This document shows, one piece after another, positions 4,201 through 46,200 of a stretch of 64,000 bases of DNA. The stretch is from assembly GCF_006345805.1 (NCBI RefSeq), contig NC_043000.1, forward strand, positions 21,452,001 through 21,516,000, read 5' to 3'. A model generated the notes under the pieces. It had not been told where the DNA came from. It ran no database searches and worked only from the letters and a program-made list of their open reading frames with translations. Both the position numbers and the translations under genes were made by a program. This DNA comes from Octopus sinensis. Taxonomy: Eukaryota. Within the stretch, counting starts at the first letter, position 1. Each line of letters opens with the position of its first letter.

Positions 4201-7200
4201 TGTAGCCCATCTATTCTTTATACCAAGACAAAACATATACATGATTATTATTTCTTTTTATCTCAGGTTTTGTTGGAACTCCTGGATGCATAACAGGCTT
4301 GCTGCCTGCAGCCTATGGTATCATGCTATCACCTCTTTTCAGCTATCTAATACTTTCCTGATTATTCTGGCAGTGCCAAGGAGGCAAACCTTTTGGAACA
4401 GTTCTACTGGGCACTCTATTCTGATTTCCTTTATATTCTGATCCAGCATTCAATTGCAGTCCAGTTTGCCTCCTTATCCCACCTTCCTTTCTACCTCTGA
4501 CTTTATGTATAAGCAAGCAGTCACTGGATGGTGATCAGGCCTGTGCTGCTCAGCCACAGGACACCTTCTGAGGGAAAGGATTTTGCCTTTTGGTTCCAGC
4601 CTCATTCACACCATTATTCGATACATTTTTATTAGATATTTTCACTCAATATTGAGGTTTGTGTTTTAAGGTTAGCCACAAACCGGTATTTTTATTGAGA
4701 CACCATCTCTTTCTAGTAAGACTGCAGAGCTCTTACTAACCATTATTTGGGCCTGTTATTATCCTCCTCCTCCTCCTCCTCCTCCTCCTCCTCCTCCTCA
4801 TCATCATCATCATCATCATCATCATCATCATCATCATTATTATTATTATTATTATTATTATTATTATTATTATCATTATTATTATTATTATTATCATTTT
4901 TATCATTATTATCATTATTATTATTATTATTATTATTATTATTATTATTATTATTATTATTATTATTTGAAATTATTGTTGTTGTTGTTCCTAGTGATAC
5001 TACTACTAATATTACTACTACTTCGACTTTTTAAAGGAAGTTTCTTCTTTCAAGGAAGCTTCATCTGTCAAAGAAGTTTCATCAGTTGTGGAGACTTCCA
5101 CTGTTAAACAGGTTTCACTTTCCCCAGTCAAAGAAGTTTCATCTGTTGCTGAGGTCTCATCAGCTACGGAAACTGTTAAAGAGGTTTCCACCGTCAGTTT
5201 GGTGCTACAAATTGAGGATCACTATCAGGACAATGCCGTAGTACTAAGATGGGAAGAATCATCAACTCCACTGCCCAATTATGAGGCAAAAATATTTTCT
5301 GTCTCAGTGTCAGGAACCAGTTTTCTAACAAACATTAACAGCAATCTGAGGTAATTATAATTTATTCTTAATCATCATTAACAAGGTGGTAGCACATGGC
5401 CTAGTGGTTAGAGCAGCGGACTCATGGTCGAGGGATTGCGGGGTCAAATCTCAGACCAGGCGATGTGTATGTTTATGAGCAAAACACCTAAGCTCCACGC
5501 AGCTTCAGCAGAAGGTAATGGCAAACTCTGCTAACTCTTTTGCCACAACGTTCTCTCAGCTCACCTGCAACAGATTGGTGTCCCATTCAGGTGGGGAACC
5601 TAATCACCAATGAAACCAGGAAACCGGCCCTTATGAGCCAGGCATGGCTCAAGAATGAACAAACAACAACAAACATTATTAACATGTAATCTCTACTAAT
5701 TGATTTTTACTTGTTTGTTATATTATTTTCTTTCTTTCTTTGTTATTTTTTTTCCTACTTTTTTCACACTGAGTTGAATTATCTCTAATATTTTCCAAGA
5801 AATGTTATCAGTAATTTAAGGAATATAAAGTAATTTACTAAATAAGGTGCAGCCTTGGATGCATGGTTAAGAGGTTCACTTTTCAGCCAGGCGGTTTTTG
5901 GTTCAGTCCCACTGTACAGAACCATGGGCAAGTGTCTTCTACTATGACACCAATTTCACCAAAGCCATTCAATTGGATTTGGTAAAAAAAAAACTGAAAG
6001 AAGCCCATTCTATATACACACATACACACAAATATATATATATATTATATATATATATATATATAGAGAGAGAGAGAGAGAGAGAGAGAGAGAAAGAGAG
6101 AGAGAGAGAAATAATTGGGATTATGTTGAATTAGGTACTACCAAGTTAGTCCAATTTTATCCAGTATTATCCACACAGCTTGAAGTAAGGGGAATAAAAT
6201 CAAAATAAGCAACAGGATATCAAGTAGTAATGCAGTACAACCATTTCAAGCAGCTCCATTTAATTGAACAATGCAATCATTACATCAATTTAAATGCAGT
6301 GCTTATCTTCAGCTGCACAAATAAATAAATGGAATTTTAATGAGTAGGACACATCTTTTTGCACTGTTAAAATATCTAAGAAAAATTATATTAATGTGTC
6401 CTACTTGTTCAAATTCCATTTATTTATTTGTGCAGCTGAAGATGGCACAGCAATTAAATTGAATTGATGTAATGATTGCATTGATCAATTAAATGGAGCC
6501 ACTTGAAACGGTCGTACTGCATTACTACTTGATATATTGTTGCTTATTTTAATTTCATGCTGGAGCACTGCCTTTAGTCGAGCAAATCGACCCCAGGACT
6601 TATTCTTTGTAAGCCTAGTACTTATTCTATCGCACTCTTTTGCTGAACTGCTAAGTTATGGGGACATAAGCACACCAGCATTGATTGTCAAGCAACGTTG
6701 GGGGAACAAAACCAGACACACGAAAATATACATACATACATATACATCTATATATATATATATATATATATATATATATATAATATATATATATATATAT
6801 ATATATATATATATATATATATATATATATATATATATATATATATATATATATATATATATATATATATATAATATATATATATATATATATATATATA
6901 TACGACGAGCTTCTTTCTGTTTCCGCCTACCAAATCCACTCACAAGGCTTTGGTTGGCTCGAGGCTATAGTAGAAGACACTTGCTCAAGGTGCCATACAG
7001 TGGGACTGAACCCGGAACCATGTGGTTGATAAGCAAGCTACTTACCACACAGCCACTCCTGCACCTAAGTATGTTTATTTATTTCAAACATATATCACTT
7101 TGCTGTAGATTGGAACTTGGTGCACATAGTAGAATGGTGCAGGTATTGAAATTACTCTAAATTTTCATCTGAGTTCATTTAACTCTGGATTTTATAGAAA

Positions 7201-43200: not shown

Positions 43201-46200
43201 AAAGAAGCCAGTCATGTATATATATATATATATTATATATATATATATATATATAAACTACGGTTTATATAGTTACCTTGAAGTAGAATGTTAATTGTAA
43301 TGTTCAACATTCTTTATATGGGTAACAAACCAGTACTTTCATAAGATTTTGCTATTTCTTAATGACATTTGTAACCTTTATTCATTTATATATATATGTG
43401 TGTGTGTGTGTGTGTGTATGTATGTATGTATGTATGTATGTATGTATGTATGTATGTATGTATGTATGTATGTATGTATGTTTATACATGTGTGTCTTTT
43501 GTCTGTTTTTGACCCACCATCGCTTGACAACCAATGTTAGTGTTTTTATGTCCCTGAAACTTAGCGGTTTTGCAAAAGAGACTGATAGAATAAGTATTAG
43601 GCTTACAAAGAATAAGTCCTGAGGTTGATTTCTTTGACTAAAGGCGGTGCTCCAGCATGGCCACAGGAGAACATCTCCTCCAGCTGGCTTTAGGCACACT
43701 CTCTGTGCCCTTTCGGTATTTGCAAAGGGAGGTCATCCTTCCCTCGTCAACCTAAGTGATACACACGGACTGCAGTTTCTGGGTCTTGACCCGTCATCAG
43801 CGTACGACAATCACCGGTTTTCGATGAAAGGAGTTCCCAATGCAAATATTAATATCCTTTTTCCAGTAACTATTCGTCACCGATCTCGAAAGAGTGTATA
43901 CAAGCAATAATAAATCTCTGAATGAGGTATAAACAGTAACTGCACGACAATGTGAGGTATATTTGCCATCTCAAAAATGGCTAACCACCAAGAGTGGGTG
44001 TTACTGTAGCTTGTAGCCCCAGGAAAACATCTCCTGGGGCTACAAGCTACAGTAACACCCACCCTTGGTGGTTAGCCATTATTGAGATGGCAAATATACC
44101 TCACATTATCATGCAGTTAATGTTTATACCTCGTTCAGAGATTTATTATTTCCTAAATATATTGTCAGGAAAAGAGGCACTCTCTTATGTAACACATTAT
44201 ATCTATTCCATCTCTTTTTGCTTTAGAATGTTGCTGTTTTTGTTGCTGAAGATGGCATCAATGTTATTGTTACTGTTTATACTGTTTTTCCATTTAAAAC
44301 TTTATTTGCATGTGTGTGTGTGTGCGCACGCGCGTGTGTGATTTTCATTATACAGCTATAAATATTTAAGCTTGAAGCTCAGTCTGTATAATTTAGTTTT
44401 TTTTATTTGCCAAGACTTTTTAACTCTTGCTAGTTTTAATGGAAAATAATGTGGAGTTTATGTTGTTGAAGTTTGATTATTTTATCATTACTATTATCAT
44501 TATTATTAAGGATAAGGTGGCAATCTGCCAATAGTAGTAGTGGTGGTGGTGGTGGTGGTGGTGGTGGTGGTGGTGGTGGTGGTGGTAGTAGTAGTAGTAG
44601 TAGTAGTAGTAGTAGTAGTAGTAGTAGTAGTAGTAGTTGTTGTTGTTGTTGTTGTTGTTGGAGAAGGTGGAAGAAGTTGTTTCGATACTAAAATTTTCTG
44701 AAATCTTTAGCTTTTATGCATTTATTTATTTTGCTTTTGCAGCTCTATGTTAATGGTGAACCAACAGTTGAGTTGGATAGTGACACAACTTCTTACAACT
44801 ACTCCTGTTTAGCAGAAAGGTGAGTAAATGGCATACACAATATTATTTAATAGCCTTACACTCGTCTATAATACACCAACCATCTTGGCATTTTCCTTCT
44901 CGTCTTTTTGTCGTGTCTTGTCATAGACCAGTGTCCTGGTTTTTAAATACATCTAATGATAAGCACTTAGCCTAAAAGATTGCTTGGAGATCCATGGAAA
45001 TGTATAAATCTGCTAAATTTTTGTATCATTAAAGCATGCAACTATTAGTAACTCTTTTGTAAATTGTGTATACTAAATGATGTATATATATATATATATA
45101 TATATAGTGGCTGTATGGTAAGTAGCTTGCTTACCAGCCGCATGGTTCCAGGTTCAGTTCCACTGCATGGCACCTTGAGCTAGTGTCTTCTACTATAGCC
45201 TTGGGCCAACCAAAGCCTTGTGAGTGGATTTGGTAGACGGAAACTGAAAGAAACCCGTCGTATATATATATATATGTATATATATATATATAGATATATA
45301 TATATATATAATATATATATATATATATATATATATATATATATATATATATATATATACACACACATATATATATATGTATGTATGTATATATGTGTGT
45401 GTATATGTTTGTGTGTCTGTGTTTGTCCCCCCCCCCAACATCACTTGACAACCAATGCTGGTGTGTTTACGTCCCCCATAACTTAGTGGTTCGGCAAAAG
45501 GGCCCGATAGATTAAGTACTAGGCTTACAAAGAATAAGTCCTGGGGTCGATTTACTGGACTAAAGGCGATGCTCCAACATGGCCAGTTACATGACTGAAA
45601 CAAGTAAAAGAGTAAAGAGTAAAAAGTGTGTATATATATATATATATTGTTGTTATCGTCATTTAACGTCCACTTTCCATACTGGCATGGGTTGGACGGT
45701 TTTATTGATGACTAGCAAGCCAGAAGGCTGTACCAGGCTCCAATCTGATCTGGCATGGTTTCTACAGCTGGATGCCCTTCCTAACACCAACCACTCTGAG
45801 AGTGTAGTGGATGCTTTTTACATGCCACCAGCACGGGCGCCAGCCAGACGGACCCAGTATTGATCACATTTGGATAATGCTTTTTACATACCACCATATG
45901 TATGTATATAAATAAATATATATAAATCCAAACTTAGGAATTGGAGCAGGTAAAAATCCAGGCTACATATGTTTCCTATCAGAACCTTGGAAGTAATAAT
46001 TAGTAAAACGTGGAAAAAAACATCTCTACTTATTTATTAGCTATAAAATACAATTTTCATTGCATCTTCTTCAGGAGGCTTTTAAATGACTGCAATGAAA
46101 TTACTCTAAAATATAACTTGAACATGTTTTTTTCTGTGACTTCATCTTCTACCTCCACAAATGCCTCAAAAATGCAAAAACATCATAAATATTGCAATTT

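What the first reader, a model, noticed from the sequence alone, without database searches (positions are those of the whole stretch)
6202..44150. Five unrelated hammerhead-bearing insertions in the introns of one gene
Seen: hammerhead layouts at 6431-6521, 14668-14713 (plus partner 15095-15137), 20388-20430, 41033-41090 and 43763-43805. Their stems differ completely in sequence but keep the order stem I-CUGANGA-stem II-GAAA-short stub-UH-stem I, and most stubs are self-complementary (AACGTT, CTGCAG, CCA-T-TGG, CC(A)G). Four of the five sit in inverted or duplicated structures. Inference: the genome carries a large, diverse set of non-autonomous ribozyme retroelements (PLE-dependent or retrozyme-like) that repeat libraries would label unknown.
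Basis: partly seen in the sequence, partly recalled or inferred. Interest (0 to 1): 0.75.

Follow-up and report, generated by a model that had tools for sequence, protein, structure and literature searches.

The report
Five Penelope-type ribozyme insertions in introns
The five hammerhead-ribozyme motifs are real. Three are cut-down ends of protein-coding Penelope-type jumping genes. Two are related protein-less retrozymes whose insertions have the same two-armed shape, so Penelope enzymes likely copied them too. This is mostly known biology in a new genome.

Summary
All five hammerhead layouts are present, beat shuffles (5 vs mean 0.09; 0 of 300) and belong to dispersed multicopy families whose majority sequence keeps the core. 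They are not five unrelated non-autonomous elements.

F1 (6.2 kb) and F4 (41 kb) are 5'-truncated 3' ends of decayed coding Penelope-like elements (PLEs) with Hydra-type endonucleases. F2 (14.7 kb) is the terminal repeat of a Penelope/Poseidon-type PLE; it carries a tRNA-like head right behind the endonuclease stop, and 51 of 58 head-bearing arms start within 12 nt of it. F3 and F5 are related (72-77%) 351/355-nt non-coding retrozymes.

All five families show two fixed 3' ends, and 77 of 89 head-to-head pairs combine one long and one short end. This is the PLE 'tail' signature and a structural sign that PLE enzymes likely mobilise the retrozymes.

Variable minimal hammerheads, U3-A8 cores and opposite-strand pairs were published in 2014, retrozymes in 2020. 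The scan has already noted the tRNA-headed repeat and the two-ended retrozyme pattern on other DNA; those notes corrected my first reading of F2. Cleavage, Pol III transcription and circles are untested.

The parts
6109..6354 (-). F1 left arm: 3' end of a Hydra-type PLE, long-tail class (ends +128 after the predicted cleavage site); hammerhead 6318-6230
   Evidence: L091: 128/42
6366..6558 (+). F1 right arm, short-tail class (+42); hammerhead about 6430-6522 with weakened stem II
14599..14869 (-). F2 left arm: tRNA-like head (14869-14797), (AAT)n, ORF start, intact minimal hammerhead 14713-14668, short end
14870..15238 (+). F2 right arm: 5'-clipped tRNA-like head (14870-14931), (GAA)n, broken hammerhead 15095-15137, long tail
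20216..20658 (+). F3 retrozyme copy, 443 nt (1.26 units of 351 nt), U3-A8 hammerhead core at 20394, terminal direct repeat
   Evidence: (L061)
41026..41136 (+). F4: 3' stub of a Hydra-type PLE; hammerhead core at 41036 with G12 changed to A
43660..44035 (-). F5 retrozyme arm, 376 nt (1.06 units of 355 nt), intact hammerhead core at 43800; 3' end abuts a SINE
   Evidence: (L031)
44030..44150 (+). F5 short inverted arm without hammerhead, long-end class (+217)
5032..22042 (+). Host gene, spliced part shown: exons 5032-5348, 11394-11512, 13691-13819, 13997-14134, 15294-15492, 18933-19056, 21845-22042
   Evidence: one contig of run X2 (two shorter joins in X14)
33081..51715 (+). Further exons with fibronectin type III matches, likely the same gene
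   Evidence: fn3 E 4e-13 to 0.05 in 5 of 12 frames tested; join to the upstream exons not tested

Best explanation
The five motifs are independent insertions from four lineages: three are truncated terminal repeats of protein-coding Penelope-like elements and two are related non-coding retrozymes, and all five were likely inserted by Penelope-type reverse transcriptase-endonuclease enzymes. Steps: (1, inferred) the enzyme nicks AT-rich DNA, often at (TA)n. (2, inferred from PMC11167929 plus the two end classes shown here) reverse transcription starts inside the RNA at one of two fixed sites downstream of the hammerhead. (3, inferred) both strands of the cut target are extended, one from each site, and the two 5'-truncated cDNAs join head-to-head, giving one long and one short arm. 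(4, inferred) F3/F5 templates are longer-than-unit or circular RNAs, because copies span the cleavage site with a single hammerhead. (5, inferred) the tRNA-like head of F2 works as a Pol III promoter, so short SINE-like copies start at it. The intronic copies are most likely decaying passengers with no role in the host gene.
For: Coding links. F4: RT motifs, endonuclease and F4 unit in order on one strand in L387; 9 of 30 endonuclease-selected loci carry the F4 unit itself (E<1e-13; in one it lies only upstream on the other strand) and about ten more carry weaker or sister hammerheads. F1: endonuclease upstream of the shared 3' region; same-locus link with the hammerhead unit in L385 and with part of it in L386, 2 of 7 loci fetched. 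F2: endonuclease C-terminus directly before the head in L008, L032, L122, L317; RT and endonuclease pieces before the head in L393; an open frame running from before the hammerhead past the tail in L397.

Retrozymes. Monomers are 351 and 355 nt, with a tandem array of 5 hammerheads 352 nt apart plus an inverted copy in L183. Longest ATG ORF is 59 and 30 aa on the sense strand. Majority monomers fold as circles at z -10.0 and -5.4 against 40 shuffles, with stems I and II formed.

Ends. 3' ends cluster at about +42/+128 (F1), +60/+105 (F2), +41/+93 (F4), +173/+230 (F3) and +173/+220 (F5). 77 of 89 head-to-head pairs are long+short against 50% expected, p 4e-13 (F1 13/16, F2 29/32, F4 16/17, F3 7/11, F5 12/13).

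F2 starts. 51 of 58 head-bearing arms begin within 12 nt of the head, 1 at 16 nt, 6 at 37 nt or more. 30 of 30 head-selected loci have at least part of the hammerhead body downstream.
Against: No intact full-length parent was recovered for F1, F2 or F4; the links rest on decayed pieces. 5 of 7 F1 endonuclease loci lacked the hammerhead unit within the stretch fetched. Pfam recognises these endonucleases poorly (GIY-YIG E 0.003 in 1 of 6 F1/F4 frames), and a homologue search found nothing at E<=1e-8, so clade names rest on motifs matched to PMC8557442.

No PLE sharing sequence with F3/F5 was found among 110 PLE-bearing or neighbouring loci; only separate retrozyme copies lay nearby. The long/short thresholds were set by eye after seeing the data, ends are BLAST ends, and the samples are top hits, not random.

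The head is not called by Rfam or by ARAGORN at default; at 90% threshold ARAGORN makes 2 tRNA-Ser(act) calls at head positions among 30 loci. F1, F3 and F5 have a mismatch (U.U, A.A, C.A) at the base of stem II instead of the conserved G10.1-C11.1. Strict cores survive in only 13/32, 25/44, 9/33, 4/25 and 27/33 copies of F1-F5.
Confidence: 0.82

Rival explanations
1. All five are non-autonomous ribozyme retroelements; the coding sequence found upstream of F1, F2 and F4 comes from chance co-insertion or template switching.
For: Most copies are short and non-coding. One F1 locus (L207) is indeed a one-off fusion to an unrelated endonuclease: 0 of 29 other copies of that endonuclease continue into F1. 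F2 copies mostly start at the head and behave like a SINE.
Against: The upstream coding sequence is shared by many independent copies in register: F4, F1 (15 loci share the upstream endonuclease region) and F2 (4-5 loci share the endonuclease end). The F2 frame also runs on beyond the tail.
Confidence: 0.07
2. F3/F5 are mobilised by a LINE or other reverse transcriptase, or spread as satellite DNA by recombination, and the resemblance to PLE insertions is incidental.
For: No sequence-sharing PLE partner was found. A tandem array exists (L183). PMC7229834 leaves LINEs or PLEs open.
Against: Most sampled copies are dispersed 1.0-1.6-unit copies with two fixed 3' ends, variable 5' ends, AT-rich flanks and head-to-head arms, 19 of 24 pairs being long+short. 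This matches the three coding PLE families of the same genome.
Confidence: 0.08
3. The insertions were retained in this gene because they affect host pre-mRNA processing.
For: Five lie within 38 kb, against a rough background of about 0.95 per 64 kb for these families (14 insertions in about 0.9-1.0 Mb of flanks). Intronic hammerheads conserved in amniotes exist (mentioned in PMC7229834).
Against: The families were defined by this window, so the count is post hoc, and many other hammerhead families exist in the genome. Of the 4 sense-strand copies, 2 have broken cores (F2 right arm, F4) and 1 has a weakened stem II (F1 right arm). The best-preserved copies are antisense.
Confidence: 0.03

Closest known systems
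PLE minimal hammerheads (Cervera and De la Pena 2014, PMC4209133; read parts 1-2 of 4)
   Same: Many variable families per genome, long stem II, extra base after A9, palindromic stem III stub, U3-A8 core variant, opposite-strand pairs 100-700 bp apart, mostly truncated PLEs.
   Different: Here F1, F3 and F5 have a mismatch at the base of stem II. Cephalopods are not named in the parts read.
Hydra-clade PLEs (Craig et al. 2021, PMC8557442; section 11 and passages read)
   Same: F1 and F4 endonucleases are C-terminal with a CxCX5C linker, CxxC and CxH motifs, no CCHH, a hammerhead in the 3' repeat, and (TA)n flanks in many copies.
   Different: F1 has about 1.4-1.6 kb between endonuclease and hammerhead and an N/S-rich stretch before the linker. 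F4 has a low-complexity insert of roughly 130-150 aa between the VIY and YIG strands. No phylogeny was run.
Penelope/Poseidon PLEs such as PAc of Anolis (Frangieh et al. 2024, PMC11167929; parts 1-2 of 4 read)
   Same: F2 has an ORF that starts near the hammerhead, two 3' end classes bounding a tail, and two cysteines between the GIY and YIG positions (L008).
   Different: The F2 repeat starts with a tRNA-like head and (AAT)n. No such head is described in the parts read.
Metazoan non-LTR retrozymes (PMC7229834, section 14 and passages; bioRxiv 10.64898/2026.07.22.740005, parts 1-3 of 5)
   Same: F3/F5 are non-coding monomers of about 350 nt (mussel 350-390 bp), GC 41-44%, one type I hammerhead per unit, tandem arrays, highly self-paired as circles. 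A mismatch at the base of stem II is reported for an axolotl family.
   Different: Those papers infer PLE dependence from co-occurrence and sequence similarity. Here it is inferred from insertion geometry. Circles and cleavage are not shown here.
Schistosoma Sm-alpha/Sj-alpha SINE-like elements (as summarised in review PMC6765202, passages read)
   Same: Pol III-type promoter next to a hammerhead, as in F2.
   Different: Those are non-coding tandem repeats. F2 is part of a coding PLE repeat and inserts head-to-head.

Membership tests
Type I hammerhead ribozyme (all five) | Core CUGANGA/GAAA/UH (or U3-A8) in family majority sequence | tested here: met
   F3 has T3/A8 in 11 of 18 scorable copies (33 examined)
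Type I hammerhead ribozyme (all five) | Stems I and II pair, stem III stub short or palindromic | tested here: met
   the F4 sister family changes stem I and the stub while keeping pairs
Type I hammerhead ribozyme (all five) | G10.1-C11.1 closing pair | tested here: inconclusive
   present in F2 and F4; mismatch in F1, F3, F5. Such mismatches also occur in a PLE-linked hammerhead (L189) and in an axolotl family (PMC7229834)
Type I hammerhead ribozyme (all five) | Self-cleavage | not testable with these tools
   no assay; RNA runs were contigs only
EN+ PLE, Hydra clade (F1, F4) | C-terminal GIY-YIG with CxCX5C linker, CxxC and CxH motifs, no CCHH | tested here: met
   L380, L382, L386 (F1) and L240, L247, L243 (F4); definition
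EN+ PLE, Hydra clade (F1, F4) | RT upstream of the endonuclease in the same element | tested here: inconclusive
   met for F4 (L387, L390); for F1 only a stretch likely to be the RT C-terminal end was seen in L380
EN+ PLE, Hydra clade (F1, F4) | Placement in the clade by RT phylogeny | not tested
   no reference Hydra proteins were in hand
EN+ PLE, Penelope/Poseidon (F2) | RT plus C-terminal GIY-YIG with two cysteines between the motifs, upstream of the hammerhead repeat | tested here: met
   L008, L393, L394; decayed pieces only
EN+ PLE (F1, F2, F4) | Inverted 5'-truncated arm and tail at one end | tested here: met
   58 of 65 pairs long+short
tRNA-derived SINE (F2) | tRNA-like head with A and B boxes at a fixed 5' start | tested here: met
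   box consensus recalled; weak ARAGORN support, no Rfam hit
tRNA-derived SINE (F2) | Stand-alone non-coding element, not part of a coding parent | tested here: not met
   head follows the endonuclease stop and an ORF starts in the body
Non-LTR retrozyme (F3, F5) | Non-coding 170-400 nt unit, one type I hammerhead per unit, GC below 45% | tested here: met
Non-LTR retrozyme (F3, F5) | Tandem repeats with at least two hammerheads | tested here: met
   F5: L183, 5 tandem hammerheads; F3: one 849-nt copy, L073/L082
Non-LTR retrozyme (F3, F5) | Expressed as abundant circular RNA | not testable with these tools
   no run on record as RNA, contigs only

The most novel reading that the evidence does not exclude
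One rule governs coding PLEs and retrozymes alike in this genome: a PLE enzyme dimer primes both strands of the cut target, one from each of two fixed internal RNA sites, which gives head-to-head arms with one long and one short end. Retrozyme circles carry their own pair of such sites half-way round from the ribozyme cut. In addition, one coding PLE family is driven by a captured tRNA (Pol III) promoter and spawns SINE-like copies of its own tip.
Probability: 0.45. Interest if true: 0.65.

Novelty: new member of a known kind. Interest (0 to 1): 0.38.

Why it matters
The finding as posed is explained by published PLE and retrozyme biology. Two side results have value.

First, the insertion geometry of F3/F5 gives a structural, testable link between retrozymes and PLE enzymes, which PMC7229834 calls only a strong candidate. 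The mapped sites (+173 and about +220-230 from the predicted cut) can be tried directly in the in vitro system of PMC11167929.

Second, a tRNA-like head inside a coding PLE repeat would be an unusual promoter capture. I did not find it in four literature searches aimed at it (listings only, three listed papers then read in passages), but the scan has already noted it several times on other DNA.

Tried and rejected
Rfam gave no hammerhead or tRNA hit in the window, 10 loci or two 101-nt pieces.

My first reading of F2 as a stand-alone PLE-mobilised SINE was rejected after earlier notes prompted an upstream check. My first clade call for F4 (Poseidon) was replaced by Hydra after reading. F1 as the 3' UTR of the L207 endonuclease family was rejected. 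F1 as a long non-coding element was rejected.

No sequence-sharing PLE partner for F3/F5 was found. No RNA holder is listed on record; F5 contigs in runs guessed to be RNA cannot show ends, strand or circles. 5' ends of F3/F5 rarely pass the cleavage site (3 copies reach 12-20 nt beyond it); this cannot separate a linear from a circular template because the sample favours copies over about 375 nt.

A homologue search with the F1 endonuclease found nothing (longer proteins only, weak evidence). The Atlas look-up gave no result. Lunse et al. 2017 (PMC5785218) is not held, so its organism list is unchecked. A search for hammerhead + Penelope-like + octopus listed only PMC8557442. The O. vulgaris repeat paper PMC13282606 has no 'ribozyme' in its main text. 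No supplements were opened; Repbase/Dfam entries were not available, and either may already hold these families.

The organism is taken to be octopus-like from recalled repeat types and earlier notes, not from a call.
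Full report
Observation. The five layouts are in the sequence. A strict type I descriptor finds 2 loci in the window against a shuffle mean of 0.005-0.055, with 0 of 200 shuffles reaching it. A relaxed descriptor that allows U3-A8 and a mismatch at the base of stem II, set after seeing the families, finds 5 against 0.09, 0 of 300. F3 has a U3-A8 core, F4 has lost G12 in this copy, and the F2 right arm has a deletion at the cleavage region. One spliced contig places F1-F3 in introns of one + strand transcript. 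F4 and F5 lie among FN3-coding exons on the same strand, with the join untested.

Families. Each insertion has many dispersed relatives in G000: first-look candidates 3323 (F1), 5362 (F2), 2811 (F3), 578 (F4) and 4505 (F5), of which 40 were scored per search. Majority sequences keep the core in all five. Individual copies are often decayed: strict cores in 13 of 32, 25 of 44, 9 of 33, 4 of 25 and 27 of 33. F3 and F5 align at 72-77% over 105-135 nt; no other pair aligns. So there are four lineages, not five.

F4. Walking upstream leads into a GIY-YIG endonuclease and RT pieces. L387 holds RT motifs, the endonuclease and the F4 unit in order on one strand. Of 30 loci picked by the endonuclease protein, 9 carry the F4 unit at E<1e-13 and about ten more carry weaker or sister hammerheads, with paired changes in stem I and the stub. 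The motifs CxCX5C, CxxC and CxH and the lack of CCHH fit the Hydra clade as defined in PMC8557442 section 11.

F1. Copies share over 1 kb upstream. One locus joins an unrelated endonuclease, but 0 of 29 other copies of that endonuclease do, so it is a one-off. A further step upstream reaches a Hydra-type endonuclease shared by 15 loci. Of 7 such loci fetched at 8.5 kb, L385 holds the endonuclease and the hammerhead unit and L386 part of it. The F1 and F4 endonucleases are 25% identical over 85 aa.

F2. The unit is a tRNA-like head, (AAT)n, a minimal hammerhead and a tail. All 30 head-selected loci have at least part of the body downstream. I first read it as a SINE. Earlier notes of the scan said it is the repeat of a coding PLE, and my data agree. 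The endonuclease C-terminus lies directly before the head in L008, L032, L122 and L317. RT and endonuclease pieces precede it in L393, and an open frame starts before the hammerhead and runs past the tail in L397. Still, 51 of 58 head-bearing arms start within 12 nt of the head and only 6 reach 37 nt or more upstream (five of those 6 built the reference, and about half the sample was selected for a full head). A Pol III start at the head is the likely cause. It is untested, and the head is only weakly tRNA-like by tools.

F3 and F5. Monomers are 351 and 355 nt with no long ORF. L183 holds five tandem F5 hammerheads plus an inverted copy. Both majority monomers fold as compact circles with stems I and II formed (z -10.0 and -5.4, 40 shuffles each). 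This meets the sequence definition of non-LTR retrozymes in PMC7229834. Expression as circles could not be tested.

Shared insertion geometry. In all five families 3' ends fall into two classes, and 5' ends vary where they were mapped. Among 89 head-to-head pairs, 77 have one long and one short end, 8 two short and 4 two long, against 50% expected (p 4e-13). Thresholds were set by eye, some ends are mis-parsed, and samples are top hits. PMC8557442 describes the inverted arm and the tail at one end for PLEs. PMC11167929 shows that the tail lies between two internal reverse-transcription starts and that both target strands are extended. The simplest reading is that each strand is primed from a different site. 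That retrozymes obey the same rule (19 of 24 pairs) points to PLE enzymes as their motor, although no sequence-sharing partner was found.

Host gene. A rough background for these families is 0.95 insertions per 64 kb. Five in the window is above that, but the test is post hoc and many other hammerhead families exist. The best-preserved copies are antisense, and three of four sense copies are damaged. There is no evidence for a host function.

Comparison and verdict. PMC4209133 already reports many variable minimal hammerhead families per genome, U3-A8 cores, palindromic stubs and opposite-strand pairs from truncated PLEs. PMC7229834 and the 2026 preprint cover retrozymes and their likely PLE origin. 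The set is therefore a group of new members of known kinds. The tRNA-headed PLE repeat and the long/short rule for retrozymes are the less ordinary parts; both were noted before by the scan on other DNA. Interest 0.38.

Noticed in passing
L240, L247, L251, L252 (F4 parent family): The endonuclease has an in-frame S/N/T/G-rich insert of roughly 130-150 aa between the VIY and YIG strands; F1's parent has a similar N/S-rich stretch just before the CxCX5C linker (L380, L381).
   Followed up: partly
window 24808-24926: Imperfect inverted repeat whose 3' arm matches the relaxed U3-A8 hammerhead descriptor (core at 24886). It may be chance or a sixth decayed element.
   Followed up: no
L184, L185, L186, L189, L190, L194, L157: Two-ORF PLEs with a CxxC-type linker (Neptune-like, name from motif) and several further hammerhead families, including a U3-A8 core; some RT-endonuclease frames of 775-883 aa are open.
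   Followed up: partly
L207:795-2656: One-off fusion of a PLE endonuclease end to the inside of the F1 3' region, possibly a template switch between two PLE RNAs.
   Followed up: yes
L180:8240-8260, L011, L191: Some F2 copies begin with a short snap-back hairpin of the head's first 10-20 nt, suggesting self-priming at the cDNA end.
   Followed up: no
L183:3769 (table 7): Loose ends in all four runs show a related sequence that shares F5 from about 24 nt after the predicted cut but has a different upstream part, likely a sister family.
   Followed up: no
window 486-51715: Host gene encodes a multi-FN3 protein; acidic low-complexity and 36-nt repeat frames lie at 588-1067 and 2925-3099. Not identified further.
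   Followed up: partly
window 11951-12378, 57856-58093, 55949-56080: Tandem arrays of 85 nt (5 copies, 97%), 35 nt and 18 nt.
   Followed up: no
window 59581-59916, 21133-21540, 33768-34067: Frames that look like 3' fragments of CR1/L2-type LINEs (recalled resemblance; no Pfam hit for the three frames tested from the first two places).
   Followed up: no
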